Shown piece after piece: positions 8,249 to 27,652 of a stretch of DNA of 64,000 nt. The notes under the pieces were generated by a model. The model made no database searches. It was not told the DNA's origin and saw only the letters and a list, made by a program, of their open reading frames with translations. The DNA lies in contig CAJBNH010000033.1 in assembly GCA_903955385.1 (NCBI GenBank), forward strand, positions 27,586 to 91,585. The letters run 5' to 3'. Source of the stretch: an uncultured Myxococcales bacterium. GTDB lineage: Bacteria > Myxococcota_A > UBA9042. Position numbers and translations under genes: made by a program. Each line of letters begins with the position of its first letter. The stretch's first letter is position 1.

Positions 8249-10378
8249 CTACGGGCAGACCTGAAGGATCCGCAGGTCGTCGACCAGCACGCCCAGGGTG
8301 TCGTTGGACTGGTCATCGACCGCATCAAAATCCAACCGAATCCAGAGCTTGTCGCCCAAGTCGGCCGGCAGATCCAACACCAGCTCCAGCCAGTTGTCGC
8401 CGGTTGTCTTCACGCAGCTGCCGCCCTGCCCACAGTTGGTGCCTTGAGGACACTGCGCGGCCGGCAGCGACGACTTGGTCCACAGCACCTTGGCAGGCTT
8501 GCCGGTCGCCTCTGCCGAGATCGTGATCTTGTCGTAGTTCACGCACGCCTCGACCTTGGCCTGAATCTGCAGCCGAAGCTGGCGCTTGGTGCCGGGAGGC
8601 AGCGAGACCTCAGGCAGGGTGACGGTGCCCTTGTTGTTGTTGAACGAGTACTTCAGCGTGGCAGGGTCGCCGTAGTACAGGACACTGCCGGGCGTGAAAG
8701 CCCAGGGCGTCGCGTAGACCTGCCACCCCTTGCTCGGGCTGTTGCTGTTGCTGATCTTGGCGCCCGCGGGCAGTCCGCTGTCGAAACCCTCTTGCCAGAA
8801 CACCTTCTTGGGGTCGCAGCAGCTGGCGATCGCCGTGTGCGTGCACGCGCCCGTCCCCGGGGTGCACGCGTCGGTGGTGCAAGCGTTGCCGTCGTCGCAA
8901 AGCGCCGTGTTGGCGGGGAACGTGCAGTCCTTGGCCGCGTCGCAGGTATCGACGGTACAGGGATTGTTGTCGGTGCAAGTCTTGGCTGCGCCCGCGATGC
9001 ACTTGCCGTTCAGGCACTTGTCGCCCACGGTGCACACGCTGCCATCGGTGCAGTCGCCGCTGTTGGCCAGAAACACGCAACCTCCGGGTGCCTTGGGGTC
9101 GCACGCCTCGTCGGTGCAGGCGTTGCCGTCGTCGCACACCAAAGGCTTGGTGCCGGCGCACTTGCCTGCCTTGCACAAGTCCGCGTCGGTGCAGACGTTG
9201 CCGTCGTTGCACGGTGCCGCATTCTCGACGAACAGGCAGCCACCCTTCGGGTCACACTTGTTGTCGGTGCAGGGATTGCCGTCGTCGCAGCTGTTCGGCA
9301 GCGCCGTGTGCTGACAGCCAGCCTTGGGGTCGCAGGCATCGCTGGTGCACAAGTCCTGATCGTCACACGTGTCGGCCGTACCTTTGCACAAGCCGACGGC
9401 ACACAAGTCGCCCTTTGTGCATGGGTTGCTGTCGTCGCAGGCCTGCGTGTTGGGCTTCTGGCCGCAACCCTGACCCGGCACGCAGACCGTGTCGGTGCAG
9501 ATGTCGTTGTCCGAGCAGACGACGCCGACGTTGTAGCCACCGCCGTCCGCGCGGCACTCGAAATACCCGAGCGAGCTGCCGCATCCCCCCTTGGCGCAAA
9601 GGTCTTCCTGGCAGCGGTGGCTGGCGTCGCAGAACTTGCCCGGCAGGCAGTCGTCGGCCGTCTCGCAGTCGACGCACACGCCCGCCACGGTGTCGCAGAT
9701 CAGGTCGCATTCCTTGCTGGTCTTGCAGGGCTTTGCGCCGATGCAGCGGTGGTCCAGGCAGGCCTGTTGGTCACCGCAGTCGGCGGCCACCACGCAATCA
9801 GCGCACAGTCCTATCGGCTTGTCGCATACCTGGTTGTTGGCCTTGCACTCGACGTCGGACTTGCAGGTCTTCGACGCGGAGCACTTGCGTTCGAGACAGA
9901 GCAGGCCAGCGCCGCAGTCGGCCGACGTCAGGCACGGGACACACGCACGGGTCGCGAGGTCGCAAACGCCCGTCTTGCATGGGTTCTTGTCGTCGCAAGG
10001 AGCAACGGTTTGCGTGCAGCCGGGAATGGCCTCGTGGGTGCAGGCGCCCGTGGCACTGCACCCGTCGATGGTGCAGGCATCCTCGTCTGCGCACTCCGAC
10101 GCTGCGGTGCATCCCGCGGGGGTCGCATCGGGGTCGGTGACGGCGTCGGAGGAGGTCTCCGTCGCTGCGTCGGGGTCGGTCACGCCGTCGGTGGTGGCAT
10201 CGTCCGAAACCGTGGCGCCGTCTGGCAGCGACGTGTCGCTGAGCGAAACATCGCCAGTGTCTTCCGCGACATCCGCAGCGGTCATGCCGCCGAGCGGGGT
10301 CGTGACATTGGAGCAACCGGCGGTCAGGGCGACCAGCAGGACAACGGTCGCAAGGGCGCGAGGGCAGAAGGAGTGCAT
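8249..10378 (-). CDS. Large lipoprotein with Myxococcus-type cysteine-rich repeats (CxDGNxCTxDxCxxxxGC) and a C-terminal beta-sandwich-like domain
   Basis: Lipoprotein signal MHSFCPRALATVVLLVALTAGC. An Asp/Thr-rich linker follows. There are at least 10 tandem Cys-rich modules resembling TIGR02232. The last ~190 aa are cysteine-poor. The start chosen is the ATG at 10378, inside the longer ORF that begins at 10675. Confidence 0.8.
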   Translation of the reverse strand: MHSFCPRALATVVLLVALTAGCSNVTTPLGGMTAADVAEDTGDVSLSDTSLPDGATVSDDATTDGVTDPDAATETSSDAVTDPDATPAGCTAASECADEDACTIDGCSATGACTHEAIPGCTQTVAPCDDKNPCKTGVCDLATRACVPCLTSADCGAGLLCLERKCSASKTCKSDVECKANNQVCDKPIGLCADCVVAADCGDQQACLDHRCIGAKPCKTSKECDLICDTVAGVCVDCETADDCLPGKFCDASHRCQEDLCAKGGCGSSLGYFECRADGGGYNVGVVCSDNDICTDTVCVPGQGCGQKPNTQACDDSNPCTKGDLCAVGLCKGTADTCDDQDLCTSDACDPKAGCQHTALPNSCDDGNPCTDNKCDPKGGCLFVENAAPCNDGNVCTDADLCKAGKCAGTKPLVCDDGNACTDEACDPKAPGGCVFLANSGDCTDGSVCTVGDKCLNGKCIAGAAKTCTDNNPCTVDTCDAAKDCTFPANTALCDDGNACTTDACTPGTGACTHTAIASCCDPKKVFWQEGFDSGLPAGAKISNSNSPSKGWQVYATPWAFTPGSVLYYGDPATLKYSFNNNKGTVTLPEVSLPPGTKRQLRLQIQAKVEACVNYDKITISAEATGKPAKVLWTKSSLPAAQCPQGTNCGQGGSCVKTTGDNWLELVLDLPADLGDKLWIRLDFDAVDDQSNDTLGVLVDDLRILQVCP

Positions 10379-10560
10379 GCGGTGGCCTCTGCGAAAGGTG
10401 GGAGACAGCCTTGCATGATACGGGTCGTCGCAGGGGCGGACAAGGCAAGGTGCATGGACGGAATAAATCGGGTCAATTGGGTCCGGAATTTGGAATCGAC
10501 TTGACAGGCGTCGCGGCGTGGCGAGGATCCCCGCCGTAACTGAACGACGACAGCCGCGCG

Positions 10561-11478
10561 TTGCGGCTTCTCCGTGGGAGGGACCCGATGGTAGGCATTG
10601 GTACGCCTTGGCGCCGCCGTAGATTGGTTCTGATGTGGGCGGGGTTGCTGATGATGCCGGCCCTCGCGCAGGCACAGGTCTTTGAGAGCGGCGAGTCGCT
10701 GCTGATGGGCTATTCCGTCACCGGCGGGGCCATCTACGAGGCCGGGCGCGGCGAGCTCAGCGGTTGGCGCGACGGCGTCGATCCCACGCCGACCGCTTAC
10801 GGCTTCCGTTACTTCGAGCGCAACGGCTTGATCTCAGGCACGATCGGCGCCGTGGCCGTGGTTCTGGGCGGCGCGATGGCGGCATCGGGACCCAAGAGCG
10901 TCGAGACCTGGGAAGACTCGAACTACCGCTATACCAAAACAACCTACTACAGCGCTGCCGAACAGGCAGCGATCACCGGGTCTGCCGCACAGTCGGCGTC
11001 CGAGCTGATGGGCTCGCCCAACCAAAGCTTCGACCTGCAGATCTTCTCGCGCTCACTCGGTGGCACCACGGCCGGCTACAAGGCCAACCTCATGTTCGTG
11101 GGCATCCCGTTCGAGGGCGGCATGGTCGACGTCGGCATGGGGTTGGGCAAGGTCACGTCGGCGTTTCAGGACAAGGGCCAATATTTCGTCAGTCGCTACA
11201 CGTACTTCGGAATGCCCATGCGGCTCAACCTGGTGATGGGACCGGTCGTGACTTACCTGCACTTCGACTGGAACTGGCTCAGCCACGCCGAGCACAAGGC
11301 CCCGGTCATCTCGGGGGCATCCAAGAACACGAAAGAGGTCGAGTCCGACGCCTTCCCGTGGCGCCTGGGTGTGCAGGCCGCGCTGTTCGGCCGGCTCTAC
11401 GTCGACGGAGCCGCCACCACACCTTCGCTGACGTCGGGTGACTTCGGGTACTCCGGGTCGCTCGGGCTGCGCTTCTAG
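10561..11478 (+). CDS. Secreted outer-membrane beta-barrel-like protein (hypothetical)
   Basis: The signal peptide ends …MMPALAQAQ. The protein is Gly/Tyr-rich with alternating hydrophobic residues and ends in …GSLGLRF, an aromatic residue of the kind seen at OMP C-termini. An alternative start lies at 10588. Confidence 0.65.
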   Translation: MRLLRGRDPMVGIGTPWRRRRLVLMWAGLLMMPALAQAQVFESGESLLMGYSVTGGAIYEAGRGELSGWRDGVDPTPTAYGFRYFERNGLISGTIGAVAVVLGGAMAASGPKSVETWEDSNYRYTKTTYYSAAEQAAITGSAAQSASELMGSPNQSFDLQIFSRSLGGTTAGYKANLMFVGIPFEGGMVDVGMGLGKVTSAFQDKGQYFVSRYTYFGMPMRLNLVMGPVVTYLHFDWNWLSHAEHKAPVISGASKNTKEVESDAFPWRLGVQAALFGRLYVDGAATTPSLTSGDFGYSGSLGLRF

Positions 11479-17731: not shown

Positions 17732-18796
17732 TCAGACGGCCGGGATCTGCTGGGTGATGCAGTGGATGCCGCCGTACTGCGACACAAGGGCCCGCGCGTC
17801 CAGACCGATCACCTGACGACCGGGCAGCAGCTCGCGAAGGATGGCCAGTGCGGCGTCGTCGGTCTTCTGGCGGAACACCGGGACCAGCGCCTTGCCGTTG
17901 GCGAGGTAGAAGTTCGCATAGCTGGCCGGCAGGTGCTCGCCCTGAAAGCGAATCGGCTCGGGTACGGGCAGCGCCACGATCTGAAACGGTCGTCCATCGG
18001 CGCCGCGCATCGCCTTGAGCCGCACGATGTTTTCTGCCATCGCTTCATGGTCCAGATGGCCCGGCGGCGGAGCGACCACAACGATGGTGTCGTCCGAAAC
18101 GAACCGCGCCATGTCGTCGATGTGGCCGTCGGTGTCGTCGCCTTCGAGTCCGTCGCCGAGCCAGTGCAGACGCTGCACGCCCAGATGGTCCTTCAGGCTC
18201 TTTTCGATACCAGCGCGGTCGAACTCCGGATTGCGATTGGTGTTCAGCAGCACGGACTCGGTCGTCAGCAGGTCGCCCCGGCCGTTGACCTCCAGCGACC
18301 CGCCCTCCATCACCAGACCGGGCTCGATCCGCGGCAGGCCCCACGTGCGGTTCATCTCGCGCGGCACCAGATTGTCCAGCTCCGAAGCAAACTTGCCGCC
18401 CCAAGCGTTGAAGCCCCAGTCGAGCATCGCAAGCTGCTGCGCCGCCTGGGGGTCCAAGGCCTTGACGAAGATCGGCCCGTGGTCGCGCGCCCAAACGTCG
18501 TCGCTGTCGACGAGATGCCAGACCAGCCGCTTGGGGTCGCCGCCGGCGCGCGTCACGTTGTTCAGCGCGCGGTCGCGCCACTCGGCGTGCGGGACGTTGA
18601 TGTGGACGGTCTCGACTTCGCTCAGTTCCGCCGCCAGCTTCGCAAAGAGCGATAGGACGGCGTCATGAAGGCCGCGCCAGATCGCCGGACGATGCGGCCA
18701 AGTGAGAACCGTACCCTCGTGTGGGGCCCACTCGGCGGGCATACGGTAGTGGCGAACGTCGAGAGACGGGTCGAGGTCCATGGACGGATCCTGCAC
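17732..18796 (-). CDS. aguA: Agmatine deiminase (porphyromonas-type peptidyl-arginine deiminase family)
   Basis: The N-terminal RMPAEWAPHEGT motif and the WARDHGPIFV, DGHIDDMARFV and GGIHCITQQ motifs are present. An alternative start lies at 18742/18781. Confidence 0.85.
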   Translation of the reverse strand: MQDPSMDLDPSLDVRHYRMPAEWAPHEGTVLTWPHRPAIWRGLHDAVLSLFAKLAAELSEVETVHINVPHAEWRDRALNNVTRAGGDPKRLVWHLVDSDDVWARDHGPIFVKALDPQAAQQLAMLDWGFNAWGGKFASELDNLVPREMNRTWGLPRIEPGLVMEGGSLEVNGRGDLLTTESVLLNTNRNPEFDRAGIEKSLKDHLGVQRLHWLGDGLEGDDTDGHIDDMARFVSDDTIVVVAPPPGHLDHEAMAENIVRLKAMRGADGRPFQIVALPVPEPIRFQGEHLPASYANFYLANGKALVPVFRQKTDDAALAILRELLPGRQVIGLDARALVSQYGGIHCITQQIPAV

Positions 18797-18924
18797 TGCG
18801 TGCGTGCGATGCGCTCAGCGAGCGTAAACGGCTGAAACAGGACGACCGACGTTCGGGTGAACGTGGAGGGGGTCGTCAGTGGGCGGATGAACAGCAAGGA
18901 AGGATCCTTTCGAGGGGCAGGGGC

Positions 18925-19815
18925 TCAGCCCTGAGGCTCGTCGTCGTTGGATGCGGCGAATCGCCGGTCGATACCGGCATAGGCGTCGATTCGGCGATCG
19001 CGGAAGAAAGGCCAGATGTTGCGCACCTCGGCCTGGCGGTCGCGGTCGCAGTGCACGATCTGTAGCTCGGCGTGGGTCTGCGAGGCGTCCACAAGCCACT
19101 CGCCCAGCGGGCCGACCGCGAAGCTGTGGCCCCAAAAATCGATACCGCCCTCGCGTCCAACGCGATTGACGGCCGCGACGAACACCCCGTTGGCGATCGC
19201 GTGACCACGCTGGACGGTCTGCCAAGCGTCCAGCTGCCGGGCGTGCTCTTCCGCAGGCTCGCTGTCGATGCTGCCGATGGCGGTGGGATAGACGATCACC
19301 TCGGCGCCCTGCAGCGCCAGCAACCTCGCGACTTCCGGGTACCACTGGTCCCAGCAGACCAGCACCCCCACCTTGCCAAAGCGCGTCTTGAACACCTGCG
19401 GCGGCAAGTCACCGGGAGTGAAGTAGAATTTCTCAGCGTACAGGGGGTCCTGCGGAATGTGCAGCTTGCGGTACTTGCCCAGCAGCGTGCCGTCTGCGTC
19501 CAGCACGACCGCGGTGTTGAAGTACACGCCCACGCCAGCGCGCTCGAACAGGGAACCGACGACCACCACGCCACACTCGGCAGCGACTTGTCCCAAGCGA
19601 CGCGTGCCGGGACCGGGGATCGGCTCCGCAAGGGCGAAGTGCTTGGTCTCCATCTCCTGGCAGAAGTACGGCGAGCGGAACAGCTCGGGCAGGACGCAGA
19701 TTTGCGCGCCCTGGGCCGCTGCCTCGCGAATGGCGCGAACGCCGTCTTCGAGCCGATCGCCGCCGTCGGCGTTGGCACGCAACTGCAACAAACCCAAAGT
19801 GAACGACGCAGCCAT
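18925..19815 (-). CDS. aguB: N-carbamoylputrescine amidase (nitrilase-superfamily C-N hydrolase)
   Basis: The Glu-Lys-Cys triad motifs are present (…CVLPELF…, KLHIP, VLVCWDQWYPE). It sits next to aguA, which gives the agmatine-to-putrescine pathway. Confidence 0.85.
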   Translation of the reverse strand: MAASFTLGLLQLRANADGGDRLEDGVRAIREAAAQGAQICVLPELFRSPYFCQEMETKHFALAEPIPGPGTRRLGQVAAECGVVVVGSLFERAGVGVYFNTAVVLDADGTLLGKYRKLHIPQDPLYAEKFYFTPGDLPPQVFKTRFGKVGVLVCWDQWYPEVARLLALQGAEVIVYPTAIGSIDSEPAEEHARQLDAWQTVQRGHAIANGVFVAAVNRVGREGGIDFWGHSFAVGPLGEWLVDASQTHAELQIVHCDRDRQAEVRNIWPFFRDRRIDAYAGIDRRFAASNDDEPQG

Positions 19816-19986
19816 CGGACGTCCTCGCGCTCGCAGGGGCAGCCATAGGGTGGGGAGCGGACCGGGCGACATAGCCGTTCCCGGCCGGGCGCGTCAAATG
19901 GCGCGGACGCAGAGGCTCACCAAGCAACGCTTGCTCCCGACCCGCAAGGTGCGCGAACCTGTCCTGCATTCCCTGAGGAGGTTCCG

Positions 19987-21480
19987 TTGTCCGCTCCCGT
20001 CGCACCCGCCGCCTTTCCGTCCTTGCGCATCGCTCGCGACGCCCTGACCCCGCTTGGGCCGTTCGCGGAAGCGCAGGCGGCGTTCCTGCGCCCCGACGCC
20101 CGTGCCGTACAGGAACTGGACGACCTGCTGCGCGACAGGAACGTCGGCGTGGTCGCGCACTTCTACATGGACCCGGAGCTTCAAGGCGTTTTGTCGGCAT
20201 GCAAGTGGCCACACATCCACATCTCCGACTCGCTGGTGATGGCGGACCGCGCAGTCGACATGGCCAAGGCAGGCGTGCAGGCGATCTGCGTCGCTGGCGT
20301 GGACTTCATGGCCGAGAACGTCCGCGCCGTGCTGGATCATGCGGGATTTGCCGCGATTGCCGTGTACCGACTGGCGGCGGGCGAGATCGGCTGTTCCCTG
20401 GCCGCATCGGCAGAAGCACCGGCCTACGCTGCGTTTCTTCGCCAGGCCGCACAGACGCCGAATTCGCTGCATGTCATCTACATCAACACCAGCCTGCGGG
20501 TGAAGGCGCACGCGCATCGGCTGGTCCCCACGATCACCTGTACGTCGTCGAATGTGGTTCGCACGATCCTGCAAGCGACCTCGCAAGTCGCGGACCTGCA
20601 CCTTTGGTTCGGCCCCGACACGTACATGGGTGAGAACCTGCGCCACCTGTTCACCGCCTACGCGCAGCTGCCGGACGACCGCATCCGCGCGCTGCACCCG
20701 GCCCACGATCAGGCCTCGATCCGGGGGCTGCTGCAACGGTTCCACCCATTCCAACAGGGCAATTGCATCGTGCATCAGTTGTTCGGCCCCGCCGTGGCCC
20801 AAGCCGTGCGCGAGCGACACTCCGACGCCTTGATCACGGCCCATCTGGAAGTACCGGGCGAGCTGTTTGCGCTGGCGAGTCAGGCGGCTGTCGAGGGCAG
20901 GGGCGTTGTAGGCTCCACCTCCGACATTCTGGGCTGCATCGTGGACCACGTGAGAGCGGCGCTGCGCCAACCCGGACCGACGCGAATTCCTGTCGTTTTG
21001 GGGACGGAAGCCGGCTTGATGACCTCGATCGTCCTTGGCGTGCAGGCGGTGCTGCGGGCAAGTGGCCGGGATGATGTCACGGTCGAGATCCTGTTTCCGG
21101 TGGCTGCCGAAGCTGCCACTGCCGATGCCGACTCTCCGCTTGGCGTGATTCCGGGTGCCTCCAACGGAGAGGGTTGCTCAACCGCAGGCGGCTGCGCGAC
21201 CTGCCCGTACATGCGCATGAATCACTTGGACGGGCTGCTGGACGCGCTGCAGCTGGTCGGGACACCGAGCGCGGCACTCGAGGCGCTGCGGCCCCGCATG
21301 GACCCGCACCGCGTGGCGGGACAGACGGTGGCACAGCTTGGGTCGGTGCCGATCCTGCACATGCGCGACTTCCAGCGCAGCGGTCGGCTGAGCGACGTGC
21401 TGGTGACCGAAGTGACCGGGCGGACGCCGTTGCGCATGTCTCTGGAAGACCTGGCGTCCTGGCCAATGCTCCGGGCTTGA
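19987..21480 (+). CDS. nadA: Quinolinate synthase NadA (long form with N- and C-terminal extensions)
   Basis: NadA core motifs are present (VVAHFYMDPELQ, …DSLVMA…, ITCTSSN, TCPYMRMN for the third Cys). The start is a TTG at 19987 preceded by a GGAGG RBS. Confidence 0.85.
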   Translation: MSAPVAPAAFPSLRIARDALTPLGPFAEAQAAFLRPDARAVQELDDLLRDRNVGVVAHFYMDPELQGVLSACKWPHIHISDSLVMADRAVDMAKAGVQAICVAGVDFMAENVRAVLDHAGFAAIAVYRLAAGEIGCSLAASAEAPAYAAFLRQAAQTPNSLHVIYINTSLRVKAHAHRLVPTITCTSSNVVRTILQATSQVADLHLWFGPDTYMGENLRHLFTAYAQLPDDRIRALHPAHDQASIRGLLQRFHPFQQGNCIVHQLFGPAVAQAVRERHSDALITAHLEVPGELFALASQAAVEGRGVVGSTSDILGCIVDHVRAALRQPGPTRIPVVLGTEAGLMTSIVLGVQAVLRASGRDDVTVEILFPVAAEAATADADSPLGVIPGASNGEGCSTAGGCATCPYMRMNHLDGLLDALQLVGTPSAALEALRPRMDPHRVAGQTVAQLGSVPILHMRDFQRSGRLSDVLVTEVTGRTPLRMSLEDLASWPMLRA

Positions 21481-21542: not shown

Positions 21543-23258
21543 ATGTCGGAAGCCCGCCCGCCGCTCCCCCCCGACGACTCGCCCGCCGCTGGCTTGGACG
21601 CCACCCGTCCGCTCGGCGGTCGGCCGCCCCCTCGCGCTGTCACCCGTCTGGAGTGGACCGCAGGCAAGCCCCTGAGCGGCCGCTACGTGATGGTCGACAA
21701 GCTGGGCGAGGGCGGCATGGGCACCGTCTACCTCGTCGAGGACCTGTTGCTGCGCCGACGGGTCGCTCTGAAGACCGTGTTCGCGGAAGACGCTTTTGAG
21801 CCCGCGGACATCGAGCGTTTTCGCAAGGAAGTTGCGCTCGCCCACAGCATCAACCACCCCAATGTCGCGCGGACCTACGACCTCGGTGAGGAGGGGGGCG
21901 TCCACTTCCTGAGCATGGAGCATCTGCGGGGCGAGACGCTGATGGCGCGCATCCGGCGCGGTCCCGTGCTGACCTCCAAAGAGGTGCGCGAGGTCGCCGT
22001 ACCGCTGTGCCGAGGCTTGGCAGCCGCTCACCGGTCGGGCGTCGTCCACCGCGACCTGAAGCCCGCGAACGTGATGCTGGTGCCCGACTCGCGCAAAGCC
22101 GTGATCATGGACTTCGGCATCGCCCGGTCGATGGGCGAGGCGATGGGCGATGAGGTGACGCTGTCACGGCCTCGCGTCGGTGCGACGGTTTGGGACGTGA
22201 CCTCGGCCGGTCTGGGCACCCCCGCGTACATGGCACCGGAGCAGTGGGACTCGGCCAGCGGCGATCAGCGCACCGACATCTACGCCTTGGGCGTGATCCT
22301 GTTTGTCTGCTTGACCGGACAGGCGCCATATGCCGCTGACACGCCTACGGAATTAGGTGACCGGCATCGCCAGTCACCGGTGCCCGACGTGCACGCATTG
22401 GCAGCGGGCGTCGACCGCGATCTGGCAGCGCTGATCCGCAGGTGTCTGGCCAAGCGCCCGGAGGACCGGCCGCAGTCGGTCGACGAGCTGCTGGAGCTGC
22501 TGGAGCGGGGCGAGCGGCGCAAGCGATTCGCGTTGCAGTTGACCACTGTGTTGCTGTCCAGCGCCGCCGTCCTTGGTCTGTTGGGCTGGTCAGTCTATGC
22601 CGTCGCCGAACAGGCGGTGCTGCAAGAGATGCGGCCGGCCCTGTCCAGACTGGCGGAGCTGGTGGCGCACGACATCGACCCCGCCGACATGGATCGGGTC
22701 CGGACTTCCGCCGACATCGACACCGCGCCGTTTCGGCGGGTTCACGCCATCATGGAGCGATACCACAGGGAAAACCCGGAGATCCGTTACTTCTACACGA
22801 TGCGGCCGGGGGCCTCTCGCGGGCTCTACCACTACGTCGTCGACGAGCAGCCGCGCGACCGGGACCTGAATGGCGACGGACAGATCCGCAACACTGCGAC
22901 GTTCTTCGAGGAGGGCACGCCCCCCGGTGAGTTCTACGACGGGCGCGACATGCCCGCGATGGCCGCGACGGTGGACACGGGGCGACCGCATACGGATCAG
23001 GACTTCGCGCGAGACGGCCTGGAGATCACGCTGTCGGGGTACGCTGCGGTGCCGATTGGGGAAAAGCCGGCGCGGTACTTCGTCGCAGTGGACGTCACCA
23101 ACGACCAGTTGTCGCGGCTGCGGCTCGCACTGACGGGGTTGTTGGGACTTGCGGAGCTTGGCCTCTGCATCGCGTTCTCGTTCCTGCTGGCCCCCGGTCG
23201 ACAGCACCGCCGCGCCCTTGCTGCATGGGCTCGCAATCGCGCGCAACCGCACACCTGA
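21543..23258 (+). CDS. Membrane Ser/Thr protein kinase with a C-terminal extracytoplasmic sensor domain bracketed by two TM helices
   Basis: Hanks kinase motifs are present (LGEGGMGTVY, VALK, HRDLKPANVML, DFGIA, APEQ). There is a TM helix at ~aa 325-345. A ~200 aa extracytoplasmic domain follows, then a second TM helix at the C-terminus. Confidence 0.9.
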   Translation: MSEARPPLPPDDSPAAGLDATRPLGGRPPPRAVTRLEWTAGKPLSGRYVMVDKLGEGGMGTVYLVEDLLLRRRVALKTVFAEDAFEPADIERFRKEVALAHSINHPNVARTYDLGEEGGVHFLSMEHLRGETLMARIRRGPVLTSKEVREVAVPLCRGLAAAHRSGVVHRDLKPANVMLVPDSRKAVIMDFGIARSMGEAMGDEVTLSRPRVGATVWDVTSAGLGTPAYMAPEQWDSASGDQRTDIYALGVILFVCLTGQAPYAADTPTELGDRHRQSPVPDVHALAAGVDRDLAALIRRCLAKRPEDRPQSVDELLELLERGERRKRFALQLTTVLLSSAAVLGLLGWSVYAVAEQAVLQEMRPALSRLAELVAHDIDPADMDRVRTSADIDTAPFRRVHAIMERYHRENPEIRYFYTMRPGASRGLYHYVVDEQPRDRDLNGDGQIRNTATFFEEGTPPGEFYDGRDMPAMAATVDTGRPHTDQDFARDGLEITLSGYAAVPIGEKPARYFVAVDVTNDQLSRLRLALTGLLGLAELGLCIAFSFLLAPGRQHRRALAAWARNRAQPHT

Positions 23259-23279
23259 CACCCTGAGGAGCACCGCGGC

Positions 23280-24941
23280 ATGGCCCACGACCCCGCCACT
23301 CCCAACCACGCGCCCGGCGCCCTCCCGTCGCCGCCAGCGGGACCTGCGCCGCGACCGAGACCACGCCCGCCCGTGCGCTCGATCGATTGGACGACCGGGC
23401 GATTGCTGAACGGCCGGTACCGCATGGTCCGCAAGCTGGGCGCAGGCGGCATGGGCGCCGTCTACCTGTGCGACGACGTGCTGCTGCGGCGACGAGTTGC
23501 GCTGAAGACCCTGTTCTCGAATGCGCAACTGGATGAGGAGGACCTGGACCGCTTTCGCCGCGAAGTCTCGATCGCCCATGCCGTCAACCATCCCAACATC
23601 GCGCGCACCTATGACTTGGGCGAGTCGGCCGGCGTCCACTACCTGACGATGGAGTTCCTGGAGGGTCGGACGCTGGTGGACCGCCTGCGCGAAGGCGCTG
23701 CCATGACCTCCGCAGAGGTGCGCGAGATCGCGGTCCCGCTGTGTCAGGGCCTGCGGGCCGCCCACCGCGCCGGCGTCGTGCACCGTGACCTCAAGCCTGC
23801 GAACGTGATGCTGGTGAACGACGACCGCAAGGCCGTCATCATGGACTTCGGCATCGCGCGAGCGGGAGATGAGGACGAGCAGCACGGAACCCGCGCACCG
23901 CTGGAGCAGAACGCCACCATTCCTTGGGAAGTGACCTCGGCGGGCCGCGGTACACCGACCTACATGGCCCCAGAGCAGTGGGACGACGAGAGCGGCGATG
24001 CCCGCACCGACATGTACGCCTTCGGGGTCATCCTGTTCGTGTGCCTGACACGTCGCGCCCCATACCGCGCGGAAAGTGCCGAAGCACTGGCGATGCTGCA
24101 CAAGAACGCGCCGATCCCGGACGTTGCGGCGTTGGTGCCCGGCGTCGACCGGGACCTGGCCAAGTTGATCCGTCACTGTCTGGCCAAGCGCCCGCAGGAC
24201 CGCCCGGACAGCGTGGACGCCGTGCTGAACGAGCTGCAGCGAGGTGCCCGTCGCCGCAAGCAAGTCCTTTCTCTGGCAGGGATTTCGCTGGCACTCGCCG
24301 GGCTGCTGCTGTTGACCGGACTGGGCCTGTGGACGATGGCGAAGTCGGCCGTCATGCAGGAGATGCGCCCCTCGCAGGCGCGTCTGGCAGAGGTGATCGC
24401 GCTGCAGATGGATGCGCGCGCCTTGGACGAGGTCAACCGCACCAAGGCCATCGACTCACCGGCCTTCGTACGCGCTCACCGGGTGCTCGAACGCTACAAG
24501 GACTCGAATCCTGAGCTGTTGTCGTTGTACGTGATGCGCTCGACCTCGCACGACAACCAGTACGAGATCGTCGTCGACCTGCTGCCCAAGGACCGCGACC
24601 TGAATGGCGACGGCGTGATCAGTCAGGAGGAACAAGGTTCCGCACCAGGGCGGCGCTATGACGGCAGTGGCACACCCGCGATGGCTGAGGTGTTGCGGAC
24701 CGGCAGGGCGGGGTCCGACACGGACTTCGTCGCGGACGACTGGGGCCTATCGCTGTCGGGCTACTCACCGGTGGTCGAGGACGGCCGAACGACCGCGTAC
24801 TTCGTAGGCGTCGATGCCCGTAACGACCAACTGGAGCGGCTGCGGGTGCGTCTGGCCGTGCTGTTCAGCGTGGTCTGGCTGTTGGGTACGATCAGCGTCA
24901 CGATCGCGCGCTTGGTCATGGATCGGCGCGCGCAAGCGTGA
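23280..24941 (+). CDS. Membrane Ser/Thr protein kinase, tandem paralog of the upstream gene with the same TM-sensor-TM architecture
   Basis: Same kinase motifs (LGAGGMGAVY, HRDLKPANVML, DFGIARA). The sensor domain aligns with the upstream paralog and contains DLNGDGVISQEE. Confidence 0.9.
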   Translation: MAHDPATPNHAPGALPSPPAGPAPRPRPRPPVRSIDWTTGRLLNGRYRMVRKLGAGGMGAVYLCDDVLLRRRVALKTLFSNAQLDEEDLDRFRREVSIAHAVNHPNIARTYDLGESAGVHYLTMEFLEGRTLVDRLREGAAMTSAEVREIAVPLCQGLRAAHRAGVVHRDLKPANVMLVNDDRKAVIMDFGIARAGDEDEQHGTRAPLEQNATIPWEVTSAGRGTPTYMAPEQWDDESGDARTDMYAFGVILFVCLTRRAPYRAESAEALAMLHKNAPIPDVAALVPGVDRDLAKLIRHCLAKRPQDRPDSVDAVLNELQRGARRRKQVLSLAGISLALAGLLLLTGLGLWTMAKSAVMQEMRPSQARLAEVIALQMDARALDEVNRTKAIDSPAFVRAHRVLERYKDSNPELLSLYVMRSTSHDNQYEIVVDLLPKDRDLNGDGVISQEEQGSAPGRRYDGSGTPAMAEVLRTGRAGSDTDFVADDWGLSLSGYSPVVEDGRTTAYFVGVDARNDQLERLRVRLAVLFSVVWLLGTISVTIARLVMDRRAQA

Positions 24942-26525: not shown

Positions 26526-27236
26526 CTACCCGAGCGGCGTGTGGCGAGGCGGCAAGGCCCACTGGATCGGCGGCTCGCCCCTGGCCTGCAAGTGGCTGTT
26601 GATCTGCGAGAAGTGGTCGCGACCCGTGAAGCCCCAGACCGACTTCGGTGACGGATGGGCGGCCTTCAACACCAGATGCCTGCTGCGGTCGACGACCTCG
26701 GCCTTGGTGGCGGCGGGCCCTCCCCACAACGCAAACACCAACCCGTCACGGCGACGGTTGAGCTCGAGGATCACCCGGTCCGTGAAAGTCTCCCAGCCGT
26801 GGTGGGCGTGCGACAGCGGCATGCCCGCGCGGACCGTCAGGATGGAATTCAGCAACAGCACGCCCTGACGCGCCCACGACACCAGACATCCGTGGTCGGG
26901 CGGCGGAATTCCCAAGTCCCGCTCGATCTCCTTGAACACGTTGACCAAAGACGGTGGCGGCCGCACGTCGGGGCGCACCGAAAAGCACAGCCCGTGCGCC
27001 TGACCGGGTCCGATGTACGGGTCCTGACCCAAGATCACGACCCGGACTTTGTCGAAGGGCGTCAGCCAGAACGCCTGAAAGATCTCGTTTCCGGGCGGGT
27101 AGACGTCGTGCAACCGCTTCTCCTCCGCCAGAAACGCACGTAGATCCTGCATGTAGGGTTGTTCGAAAGCGTCACCCAGCACCGACAGCCACGACGGTTC
27201 CAGGTTCGGGGTTCGCGGGGTCGTCGACGGGGTCAC
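26526..27236 (-). CDS. ung: Uracil-DNA glycosylase
   Basis: UNG motifs are present (VVILGQDPY, GLCFSV, LLLNSILTV, HPSPKS). The start is a GTG at 27236 with a GGGAGG RBS 7 nt upstream. The ORF track extends further, to 27617. Confidence 0.85.
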   Translation of the reverse strand: MTPSTTPRTPNLEPSWLSVLGDAFEQPYMQDLRAFLAEEKRLHDVYPPGNEIFQAFWLTPFDKVRVVILGQDPYIGPGQAHGLCFSVRPDVRPPPSLVNVFKEIERDLGIPPPDHGCLVSWARQGVLLLNSILTVRAGMPLSHAHHGWETFTDRVILELNRRRDGLVFALWGGPAATKAEVVDRSRHLVLKAAHPSPKSVWGFTGRDHFSQINSHLQARGEPPIQWALPPRHTPLG

Positions 27237-27652
27237 GGTGGCCTCCCGATGCGTGCGTTCCGCGGATTCTGCCACAAGTCTGGTGCGATGGGGGCAGCTA
27301 CGTCGAAAGCGGGCAAGCGCGCGGTGCGAGCGGCGTCGGCCAGCCTGAAGAGGGGGCCCCGGCCGACGCCGCACCGCATGGCACCGCGCGGCGGCCGGCG
27401 ATCCTGCATGTGCACCCTGGGCTGGGCTGGTGCACGCACACGTCATCGCCGGCCTTGCCGCGCGGCATCGCTGAACCGCCCCCGGGTCATGGCACCCGCA
27501 GCGGATGGGGCGCAGCCGGCTCGGAAAGCTGCGACCTTTATGCAACCCGCCGCCTCGCACTCCATTCCCTCCCCGCGACACTTTCTTCTTGCGCCCCCTT
27601 TGGGCAGCATCGGACATCGAATGGCGAACGGAACCGCTCGACCGAGGTGAGG

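What the first reader, a model, noticed from the sequence alone, without database searches (positions are those of the whole stretch)
21543..24941. Tandem paralogous Ser/Thr kinases with kinase-TM-sensor-TM topology
Two adjacent kinases share the same architecture. A cytoplasmic Hanks kinase is followed by a TM helix. Then comes a ~200-aa extracytoplasmic domain with motifs conserved between the two (YxxMRP/YVMRST…YHYVVDEQP/YEIVVDLLP…DRDLNGDG…LSGY). A second TM helix lies at the extreme C-terminus. The duplicated sensor domain looks Cache/PDC-like but contains an inserted Ca-binding-type loop. Tandem duplication with divergence suggests a pair that senses related ligands.
Basis: partly seen in the sequence, partly recalled or inferred. 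Interest (0 to 1): 0.55.

Follow-up and report, generated by a model that had tools for sequence, protein, structure and literature searches.

The report
Paired receptor kinases with calcium-loop sensor
Two adjacent genes of an uncultured freshwater myxobacterium encode membrane receptor Ser/Thr kinases, each with a periplasmic Cache-type sensor carrying a calmodulin-like calcium-binding loop; the sensor belongs to a large family that Pfam and NCBIfam do not model, so the pair is a new variant of a familiar kind of receptor.

Summary
Genes K1 (21543-23258, 571 aa) and K2 (23280-24941, 553 aa) are 54% identical, lie 21 nt apart on the same strand, and share one layout: PknB-like Hanks kinase, TM helix, ~165-aa periplasmic domain, TM helix at the C-terminus.

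Three points are new relative to the finding:
- The loop is not peculiar to this pair. It marks a family of at least 809 sequence clusters, attached to Ser/Thr kinases, PP2C phosphatases, histidine kinases and GGDEF cyclases, or repeated 2-5 times in one protein.
- The K1/K2 duplication is old and its gene order is kept across divergent Myxococcota MAGs.
- The flanking genes are not conserved with the pair.

Most likely mechanism (inferred): Ca2+-dependent periplasmic sensing that controls kinase dimerisation and autophosphorylation. Verdict: new variant of a known kind, moderate interest.

The parts
21543..23258 (+). K1: receptor-type Hanks Ser/Thr kinase, 571 aa
   Evidence: ORF; the same gene call on identical contigs; 54% identical to K2.
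21684..22475 (+). K1 kinase domain (aa 48-311). All catalytic motifs are intact, and the activation loop is long with a conserved WDVTSAGLGTP motif.
   Evidence: Pfam Pkinase 152.6 bits; motifs GEGGMG, VALK, HRDLKPAN, DFG and APE seen.
22527..22607 (+). K1 TM helix 1 (aa 329-355)
   Evidence: Hydropathy peak of 1.9, preceded by RGERRKR on the cytoplasmic side.
22608..23117 (+). K1 periplasmic single Cache/PDC sensor domain (aa 356-525), pI 4.9
22863..22913 (+). K1 degenerate EF-hand-like loop DLNGDGQIRNTATFFEE (aa 441-457). A 4-residue insertion puts Arg at loop position 9 and Ala at position 12.
   Evidence: It does not match the first 12 positions of PS00018. The insertion is present in the 98%- and 94%-identical K1 orthologues L004 and L005 and in no other K1-type sequence.
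23118..23198 (+). K1 TM helix 2 (aa 526-552), followed by a 19-aa basic cytoplasmic tail
   Evidence: Hydropathy; tail RQHRRALAAWARNRAQPHT.
23259..23279 (+). 21-nt gap between K1 and K2, with GAGGAG (a possible ribosome-binding site) upstream of the K2 ATG. Co-transcription is likely but inferred.
   Evidence: Sequence printed. No terminator-like site lies between the genes.
23280..24941 (+). K2: receptor-type Hanks Ser/Thr kinase, 553 aa
   Evidence: The full-length AF2 model has pLDDT 87 and pTM 0.75. Its kinase part is closest to M. tuberculosis PknB (target TM-score 0.91, 32% identity).
23418..24215 (+). K2 kinase domain (aa 47-312). The activation-loop insertion at aa 193-221 is modelled with low confidence, and the conserved motif here is WEVTSAGRGTP.
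   Evidence: Pfam Pkinase 165.5 bits.
24258..24344 (+). K2 TM helix 1 (aa 327-355), part of one continuous modelled helix spanning aa 312-375
24345..24836 (+). K2 periplasmic single Cache/PDC sensor domain (aa 356-519), pI 4.7
   Evidence: Match to the family HMM at E=4e-63. DSSP order of elements, with the EF loop between β2 and α3: α1, α, α2, β1, β2, α3, β3, β4, β5, αC.
24597..24632 (+). K2 canonical 12-residue EF-hand-type loop DLNGDGVISQEE (aa 440-451)
   Evidence: Matches positions 1-12 of PROSITE PS00018, the only such match in the six-frame translation of the window. Faint Pfam EF-hand_5 hit. The family profile aligns with calmodulin loops.
24837..24923 (+). K2 TM helix 2 (aa 520-548), followed by a 6-aa tail

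Best explanation
K1 and K2 are two co-transcribed receptor-type Hanks Ser/Thr kinases of an uncultured freshwater Myxococcota bacterium.

Anatomy. Each protein has four parts in order. First comes a PknB-like cytoplasmic kinase. One long helix then leaves the kinase, crosses the membrane as TM1 and becomes the first helix of a periplasmic single-Cache (PDC) domain. The last helix of that domain returns through the membrane as TM2 and ends there. The Cache domain belongs to a large family that Pfam and NCBIfam do not model. Its hallmark is a calmodulin-type 12-residue Ca2+-binding loop inserted between strand β2 and helix α3. In solved PDC sensors such as CitA, DcuS and DctB, that segment forms the lid or wall of the ligand pocket.

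Proposed mechanism (inferred, not shown). Ca2+ occupies the loop. Loop occupancy, either alone or by completing the pocket for a small ligand, sets the conformation and dimer packing of the sensor. That state is passed through the TM1/TM2 helices. It controls kinase dimerisation and autophosphorylation on the conserved VTS residues of the long activation loop.

The pair. K2 keeps a canonical loop and K1 has a degenerate one. The pair is an old duplication kept in the same order. The two therefore most likely differ in Ca2+ or ligand response, and may work as a heterodimer.

How sure each step is. Shown: genes, topology, fold, loop sequence, family breadth and conservation of the pair. My probabilities for the inferred steps:
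- Ca2+ binds the loop: about 0.6.
- Ca2+ is itself the signal: about 0.3.
- Ca2+ acts as a cofactor for another ligand: about 0.35.
- K1 and K2 form a heterodimer: about 0.3.
For: - Genes and paralogy.
- Intact catalytic motifs in both clades, and a kinase fold closest to PknB, PknA and Stk1.
- Two TM helices with positive charges on the cytoplasmic side.
- A continuous modelled helix at aa 312-375 and a terminal helix at aa 516-552 in K2.
- EF-type loop: the PS00018 12-position match in K2, the family profile aligning with all four calmodulin loops, and sub-threshold Pfam EF-hand_5/EF-hand_1 hits in 14 and 10 of 37 members.
- Loop conservation: a canonical loop in 154 of 218 domain instances. 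Loop positions 1 and 12 are invariant, and positions 6 (Gly) and 8 (Ile) are at least 90% conserved, across 38 kinase-linked members.
- It is a genuine signalling input module. It is always flanked by TM helices. Among 74 single-domain representatives it is joined to Pkinase in 22, SpoIIE in 20, HATPase_c in 20, GGDEF in 9, HD_5 in 2 and Guanylate_cyc in 1.
- The sensor domains are acidic, with pI 4.7-4.9.
- There is a precedent for a Cache domain mediating a calcium response: CasA of Vibrio fischeri (PMC8576532).
- The pair is conserved as K1-type followed by K2-type in L004, L005, L009, L010, L013, L014, L015 and L017, and the two types form separate clades.
Against: - No metal or ligand binding was measured, and the model coordinates could not be inspected. 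The loop geometry and its position over the pocket are therefore inferred from topology only.
- The loop lacks the entering helix and the hydrophobic position 13 of true EF-hands, and it is unpaired. Lone loops usually bind Ca2+ weakly.
- Two family members have lost the loop yet keep every other conserved motif. The conserved core residues (Tyr and Arg in β1, Asp at the end of β2, Tyr after the Pro-Gly motif, Asp-x-Trp-Gly before β3, Asp in β5) may therefore serve a ligand site that does not need Ca2+.
- K1's own loop is degenerate.
- In fresh water, periplasmic Ca2+ (about 0.1-1 mM, general knowledge) could saturate a high-affinity site. That would favour a structural role over a sensing one.
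- No conserved neighbouring genes point to a pathway.
Confidence: 0.55

Rival explanations
1. The signal is a small organic ligand, and Ca2+ plays only a structural role. The conserved pocket residues of the Cache domain bind the ligand, for example an amine, amino acid or carboxylate. The EF-type loop is a constitutively Ca2+-filled brace that stabilises a periplasmic domain and carries no information.
For: Members without the loop keep all the other conserved motifs. Near-invariant Tyr, Arg and Asp residues lie on the β-sheet strands. The closest solved relatives (CitA, DctB, KinD, chemoreceptor dCache domains) all bind small organic ligands. Environmental Ca2+ would probably saturate the site (general knowledge).
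Against: The loop is the most strongly conserved sequence feature of the family, and it lies in the β2-α3 connector that borders the pocket in PDC sensors. A purely structural brace would not be expected to differ between the two conserved paralogues, canonical in K2 and degenerate in K1.
Confidence: 0.3
2. The loop does not bind metal. It is an EF-like sequence relic used as a surface or dimer-interface loop, and the domain acts mainly as a dimerisation and membrane-anchoring module for kinases that are regulated from the cytoplasm.
For: There are no flanking helices, no paired EF-hand, and only sub-threshold Pfam EF-hand scores. K1's loop fails the consensus. TM2 has nothing downstream of it in the kinases.
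Against: Every Ca2+-liganding position (1, 3, 5, 12), together with Gly6 and Ile8, is conserved across hundreds of distant sequences with different output domains. That is hard to explain without metal binding. The domain is used as the N-terminal input of histidine kinases, GGDEF cyclases and PP2C phosphatases, exactly as known sensors are.
Confidence: 0.1
3. K1 and K2 are functionally redundant, independent homodimeric receptors. The tandem arrangement is a neutral leftover of duplication, with no division of labour.
For: Both keep intact catalytic motifs and the same architecture. Some relatives carry a single copy (L006, L008, L016, L020-L022).
Against: The two types form separate clades, and the order K1 then K2 is kept in at least eight loci from divergent MAGs (about 55-60% identity to the window proteins). 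Clade-specific residues exist, with AGLGTP against AGRGTP in the activation loop. The sensors diverged more than the kinases.
Confidence: 0.2

Closest known systems
CitA/DcuS/DctB/WalK periplasmic PDC sensor domains (Pfam single-Cache families sCache_3_2 and sCache_3_3)
   Different: Identity is only 10-14%. No curated Cache model reaches its cut-off. A roughly 25-30-residue β2-α3 connector carries an EF-hand-type loop absent from those structures. The output is attached to TM1 (N-terminal kinase) instead of TM2. The family is heavily linked to Ser/Thr kinases and PP2C phosphatases, a link that is rare for the Cache families tabulated in PMC4822843.
PknB/PknA (M. tuberculosis) and Stk1 (S. aureus) receptor Hanks kinases
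   Same: An N-terminal cytoplasmic kinase, a TM helix and an extracytoplasmic sensor. The kinase fold has target TM-score 0.91 and 32% identity to PknB. All catalytic motifs are present.
   Different: The sensor is a Cache domain, not PASTA repeats. NCBIfam PknB_PASTA_kin matches only its kinase part and falls below the cut-off. There is a second TM helix at the C-terminus, and a longer activation loop with a W[DE]VTSAG[LR]GTP motif.
CasA, the calcium-responsive diguanylate cyclase of Vibrio fischeri (periplasmic dCache_1 domain)
   Same: A Cache-superfamily periplasmic domain flanked by two TM helices, needed for a response to external Ca2+. Acidic residues of the sensor are required (PMC8576532).
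   Different: CasA has a double Cache domain, no EF-hand motif is mentioned in the paper ('EF-hand' occurs 0 times), and the output is GGDEF. Homology to the present family was not tested.
Calmodulin-type EF-hand loops and the wider class of DxDxDG Ca2+ loops found in non-EF-hand folds
   Same: The family consensus D-x-[DN]-G-[DN]-G-x-I-x-x-x-E aligns residue for residue with all four calmodulin loops. K2 fits PS00018 positions 1-12.
   Different: It is a single loop with no entering helix, only a 3-residue helical turn at loop positions 10-12, and Gln instead of a hydrophobic residue at position 13. It is embedded in a β-sheet domain. This is a resemblance of the loop only, not membership of the EF-hand domain family. 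The comparison with DxDxDG loops in other folds (Rigden and Galperin 2004) rests on my own knowledge.
PhoQ periplasmic PDC sensor
   Same: A PDC-fold sensor that reads periplasmic divalent cations (PMC2376233, listed).
   Different: PhoQ uses an acidic patch that bridges to the membrane rather than an EF-type loop (my knowledge), and its output is a histidine kinase downstream of TM2. The relationship was not tested here.

Membership tests
Hanks-type (eukaryotic-like) Ser/Thr protein kinases (Pfam PF00069) | Pkinase HMM above the gathering score | tested here: met
   152.6 bits (K1) and 165.5 bits (K2) against a 31.7-bit cut-off.
Hanks-type (eukaryotic-like) Ser/Thr protein kinases (Pfam PF00069) | Catalytic motifs: Gly-rich loop, VAxK lysine, HRDLKPxN, DFG, APE | tested here: met
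   All are present in K1, K2 and both orthologue clades. The fold is closest to PknB.
Hanks-type (eukaryotic-like) Ser/Thr protein kinases (Pfam PF00069) | Phosphotransfer and autophosphorylation activity | not testable with these tools
   Needs an in-vitro kinase assay.
Cache superfamily / PDC fold (single Cache, sCache_3-like) | Extracytoplasmic position between two TM helices | tested here: met
   Hydropathy and charge distribution. The same arrangement is seen in nearly all of the 150 representatives. The K2 model agrees.
Cache superfamily / PDC fold (single Cache, sCache_3-like) | PDC fold: a long N-terminal helix and a central antiparallel β-sheet flanked by helices | tested here: met
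Cache superfamily / PDC fold (single Cache, sCache_3-like) | Match to a curated Cache HMM above its gathering score | tested here: not met
   K1 and K2 have no Cache hit at E≤1. Among 37 family members only sub-threshold hits appear: sCache_3_3 in 5, Cache_3-Cache_2 in 3, sCache_3_2 in 3, dCache_1 in 2. The best is 28.7 bits against a 28.8-bit cut-off, in P0001. It therefore belongs to the superfamily by fold but to no current Pfam family.
Cache superfamily / PDC fold (single Cache, sCache_3-like) | Binding of a signal ligand in the pocket | not testable with these tools
   Needs ligand screening and a structure.
EF-hand domain (PF00036/PF13202; PROSITE PS00018) | 12-residue loop with liganding positions 1, 3, 5 and 12, Gly at 6 and a hydrophobic residue at 8 | tested here: met
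   Met in K2: DLNGDGVISQEE fits PS00018 positions 1-12. Not met in K1, where an insertion puts Arg at position 9 and Ala at position 12. Met in 154 of 218 family domains.
EF-hand domain (PF00036/PF13202; PROSITE PS00018) | Helix-loop-helix context, with a hydrophobic position 13 starting the exit helix | tested here: not met
   DSSP shows coil before the loop and only a 3-residue turn at aa 449-451 in K2. Position 13 is Gln.
EF-hand domain (PF00036/PF13202; PROSITE PS00018) | Pfam EF-hand HMM above the gathering score, and paired EF-hands | tested here: not met
   EF-hand_5 scores 13.0 bits against a 25.9-bit cut-off in K2 and gives nothing in K1. There is one loop per domain.
EF-hand domain (PF00036/PF13202; PROSITE PS00018) | Ca2+ binding | not testable with these tools
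   Needs ITC, Tb3+ luminescence or a structure.
PknB/Stk1 PASTA kinases (NCBIfam NF033483) | Full-length match including the extracellular PASTA repeats, above the cut-off | tested here: not met
   255.6 and 264.9 bits against a 450-bit cut-off. Only profile positions 2-272 of 563 (the kinase part) align.

The most novel reading that the evidence does not exclude
The sensor defines a previously undescribed Cache family (an 'EF-loop Cache') that acts as a dedicated periplasmic Ca2+-sensing cassette of the form TM helix, Cache domain, TM helix. Bacteria would plug this cassette into Ser/Thr kinases, PP2C phosphatases, histidine kinases and c-di-GMP enzymes, and stack it 2-5 times behind an HTH domain in candidate-phyla-radiation bacteria. 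Within this reading, the conserved K1/K2 pair works as an asymmetric heterodimeric receptor with one Ca2+-competent and one Ca2+-degenerate subunit.
Probability: 0.2. Interest if true: 0.7.

Novelty: new variant of a known kind. Interest (0 to 1): 0.42.

Why it matters
Cache domains are the commonest extracellular sensors of prokaryotes. They are generally treated as cofactor-free small-molecule binders (abstract of PMC12889525). Direct external-Ca2+ sensors in bacteria are few and poorly understood; the CasA paper describes CasA as a novel calcium sensor.

A Cache family of at least 809 sequence clusters with a built-in calmodulin-type loop would give a sequence-recognisable candidate Ca2+ input module. 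It would also annotate a block of 'hypothetical' periplasmic regions in kinases, phosphatases and cyclases, mostly from uncultured bacteria.

The strong link to Ser/Thr kinases and PP2C phosphatases is unusual for Cache domains. It suggests matched kinase and phosphatase receptors that read the same signal.

For this locus itself the result is modest: two ordinary-looking receptor kinases, now with a defined sensor fold and a testable ligand hypothesis.

Tried and rejected
- A word-indexed homology search with the K1 sensor alone found nothing. The same tool with a 37-sequence profile returned only 18 short fragments, because of its candidate cap. The exhaustive profile search was what revealed the family.
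- PDB sequence searches found no Cache relative, only EF-hand proteins over the loop.
- NCBIfam gave kinase-only hits.
- The afdb50 fold library was unavailable.
- A functional link to the neighbouring genes was considered and rejected. These are agmatine deiminase, N-carbamoylputrescine amidase, NadA, DUF971, glucokinase and UDG. They are syntenic only in the 94-98%-identical genomes and absent around the pair in all more distant loci.
- No other copy of the sensor was found in the window. Among the window ORFs scanned with Pfam, none was a PP2C phosphatase or an FHA-domain protein.
- The promoter and terminator scan was uninformative.
- A lanthanide-type (lanmodulin-like) loop was considered because lanmodulin appeared among the PDB hits. 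I rejected it because, from my own knowledge of lanmodulin, its loops carry Pro at position 2, and that is absent here.
- Literature searches for an EF-hand within a Cache, sCache or PDC domain found no description.
- Cluster look-ups gave no organism names or informative annotation for family members.


Full report
**1. The observation**

The window has about 66-68% G+C. Two same-strand ORFs lie exactly at the reported coordinates: K1 at 21543-23258 (571 aa) and K2 at 23280-24941 (553 aa). Independent gene callers on identical metagenome contigs made the same calls. The genes are 21 nt apart, with GAGGAG upstream of the K2 start codon.

The proteins are 54% identical over 518 residues. By region, identity is 65% in the kinase domain and 46% in the sensor. 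Pfam finds only a protein kinase domain, at aa 48-311 in K1 and aa 47-312 in K2, and nothing for the C-terminal 240 residues.

Hydropathy gives two TM segments in each protein: 329-355 and 526-552 in K1, 327-355 and 520-548 in K2. Basic clusters lie before TM1 and after TM2, so the region between them is periplasmic. The inter-TM domain is about 165-170 aa rather than about 200.

**2. What the sensor is**

A word-indexed search with the sensor alone found nothing. An exhaustive HMMER search of 1.84 billion representative proteins with the K1/K2 sensor alignment found 809 clusters at E≤1e-3 and 279 at E≤1e-10. In essentially all of the top 150, the domain sits between two hydrophobic helices.

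An AlphaFold2 model of the K1 sensor, built on a 37-sequence alignment (A2), is very confident: pLDDT 95.4, pTM 0.89. Its topology is a long helix, two or three short helices, β1, β2, a long connector, α3, β3, β4, β5 and a C-terminal helix.

- Foldseek agrees.
- At sequence level no curated model reaches threshold. K1 and K2 have no Cache hit. Other family members give only sub-threshold hits to sCache_3_3, sCache_3_2, Cache_3-Cache_2 and dCache_1.
- NCBIfam recognises only the kinase.

The domain is therefore a single Cache/PDC domain by fold, from a family that Pfam and NCBIfam do not model.

**3. The loop**

The β2-α3 connector carries the family's most conserved sequence, D-x-[DN]-G-[DN]-G-x-I-x-x-x-E followed by x-G-x-x-P-G-x-x-Y-D.

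- A profile of the family finds calmodulin and other EF-hand proteins as its best PDB sequence matches. It aligns only over this segment, and to all four calmodulin loops.
- Sub-threshold Pfam EF-hand_5 and EF-hand_1 hits occur in 14 and 10 of 37 members.
- K2's DLNGDGVISQEE (aa 440-451) fits positions 1-12 of PROSITE PS00018. This is the only such match in the 128,000-residue six-frame translation of the window.
- A canonical loop is present in 154 of 218 domain instances among the top representatives.
- Two members of alignment A2 lack exactly this 16-residue segment while keeping every other motif.

It is not a true EF-hand domain. There is no entering helix, only a three-residue helical turn at loop positions 10-12, Gln at position 13, and no partner loop. 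It is best described as an EF-hand-type (DxDxDG-class) loop in a non-EF-hand fold.

K1's loop, DLNGDGQIRNTATFFEE, has a 4-residue insertion that puts Arg at position 9 and Ala at position 12. That insertion is present in the 98%- and 94%-identical K1 orthologues L004 and L005 and in no other K1-type sequence.

**4. Context of the family**

Among 74 single-domain representatives, the partner domains are:

| Partner domain | Proteins |
|---|---|
| Pkinase | 22 |
| SpoIIE (PP2C phosphatase) | 20 |
| HATPase_c (histidine kinase) | 20 |
| GGDEF | 9 |
| HD_5 | 2 |
| Guanylate_cyc | 1 |

Another 55 of the top 150 proteins repeat the cassette (TM helix, Cache domain, TM helix) 2-5 times. In the two such proteins scanned, it follows a TrmB/MarR-like HTH domain.

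This is the behaviour of a generic signalling input module. The strong association with Ser/Thr kinases and PP2C phosphatases contrasts with the Cache families tabulated by Upadhyay et al. In their Table 1, as I read its flattened text, those outputs are rare (PMC4822843).

**5. The whole protein**

A full-length K2 model (pLDDT 87, pTM 0.75) shows:
- a kinase domain closest to M. tuberculosis PknB and PknA and S. aureus Stk1 (target TM-score 0.91, 32% identity);
- one uninterrupted helix, aa 312-375, from the end of the kinase through TM1 into the first sensor helix;
- a terminal helix, aa 516-552, that forms TM2.

All catalytic motifs are intact in both paralogues and their orthologues. The activation loop carries a poorly modelled insertion (aa 193-221 in the K2 model) followed by a conserved W[DE]VTSAG[LR]GTP motif. 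The variable position is Leu in the K1 clade and Arg in the K2 clade.

**6. Organism, conservation and neighbours**

The closest genome records are Myxococcota MAGs at 98% and 94% identity. Relatives at 48-60% identity are all MAGs, most of them labelled Myxococcota, Myxococcales or Deltaproteobacteria, several from lakes and groundwater.

A neighbour-joining tree separates a K1-type clade from a K2-type clade. The K1-type gene is always the upstream gene and the K2-type the downstream one.

- The tandem order is kept in L004, L005, L009, L010, L013, L014, L015 and L017.
- In L018 the K2-type gene lies 2 kb away on the other strand.
- In three loci the contig ends right after the K1-type gene.
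- L006 and L008 have no adjacent K2-type gene.

The duplication is therefore old and retained.

The flanking genes are agmatine deiminase, a C-N hydrolase, NadA, DUF971, glucokinase and UDG. They are syntenic only in the near-identical genomes, so they give no functional clue. No further copy of the sensor lies in the window.

**7. Mechanism**

Shown: the architecture, fold, loop sequence, family breadth and conservation of the pair.

Inferred:
- The loop binds Ca2+. Every liganding position is conserved across hundreds of distant sequences, and the sensor domains are acidic, pI 4.7-4.9.
- The β2-α3 segment borders the ligand pocket in solved PDC sensors (established knowledge of CitA, DcuS and DctB; not verified on coordinates here). 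Ca2+ occupancy would then be read out directly, or would complete the site for a second ligand.
- The change is passed through the continuous TM1 helix, packed against TM2, to kinase dimerisation and activation-loop autophosphorylation, as in PknB-type receptor kinases.

CasA of Vibrio fischeri shows that a Cache-superfamily periplasmic domain can mediate a Ca2+ response (PMC8576532).

The main rival is that Ca2+ is only structural and the signal is an organic ligand. Three things support that rival: the loop-less family members, the conserved Tyr/Arg/Asp residues of the sheet, and the likely saturation of a tight site in fresh water.

Whether K1 and K2 act as a heterodimer or as separate receptors with different sensitivity cannot be decided here.

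**8. Verdict**

It is not a new kind of system: it is a receptor Hanks kinase with a Cache sensor. The sensor does belong to a sizeable family that current protein-family libraries do not model. Its embedded calmodulin-type loop and its unusual preference for Ser/Thr kinase and phosphatase outputs make it a new variant of a known kind, with a concrete and cheap experimental test (Ca2+ binding by the isolated domains). Interest is moderate.

Noticed in passing
related proteins P0001, P0002, P0005, P0007, P0010 and others; not in the window: 55 of the top 150 family representatives repeat the cassette (TM helix, EF-loop Cache domain, TM helix) 2-5 times in one polypeptide (P0002: 1412 aa, five copies). 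In the two scanned (P0001, P0054) the repeats follow an N-terminal TrmB/MarR-like HTH domain. Family fragments returned by a separate search carry Peregrinibacteria and Patescibacteria names. A DNA-binding domain tethered to up to five periplasmic sensors is an odd architecture.
   Followed up: partly
window 22119-22205 (K1 aa 193-221) and 23856-23942 (K2 aa 193-221): Both kinases have an unusually long activation loop: a variable, low-confidence insertion followed by a conserved W[DE]VTSAG[LR]GTP motif. The Leu/Arg position distinguishes the K1 and K2 clades.
   Followed up: partly
window 8249-10675 (-): An 808-aa ORF with four or more Dicty_CTDC Cys-rich repeats (Pfam E=5.6e-32), overlapping a 765-aa ORF on the + strand that has no Pfam hit. 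It is probably a secreted repeat protein typical of myxobacteria.
   Followed up: no
window 26526-27617 (-): The mechanical ORF for uracil-DNA glycosylase is 363 aa, but gene callers on identical contigs aa. The UDG domain occupies aa 190-344, so the long N-terminal extension is probably not translated.
   Followed up: no
window 19987-21480 (+): The NadA (quinolinate synthase) ORF is 497 aa, yet the Pfam NadA model covers only aa 43-318 (profile positions 2-215 of 295). The C-terminal ~180 aa are unassigned.
   Followed up: no
window 17732-19872 (-): Adjacent agmatine deiminase (PAD_porph) and C-N hydrolase (probably N-carbamoylputrescine amidase) genes form a putrescine-synthesis pair upstream of the kinases. 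They are not conserved next to the kinase pair in distant genomes.
   Followed up: yes
L012 (contig end) and L019 (contig start), same MAG STS170223_bin_369: The contigs break exactly between a K1-type and a K2-type gene, which suggests that assemblers break at this paralogous pair. Single-copy counts in MAGs may therefore understate how often the pair is tandem.
   Followed up: partly
L015 and L018, same MAG Baikal-deep-G138: One genome carries two separate K1-type/K2-type pairs, one tandem and one with the genes on opposite strands 2 kb apart. The pair itself has therefore been duplicated at least once.
   Followed up: no
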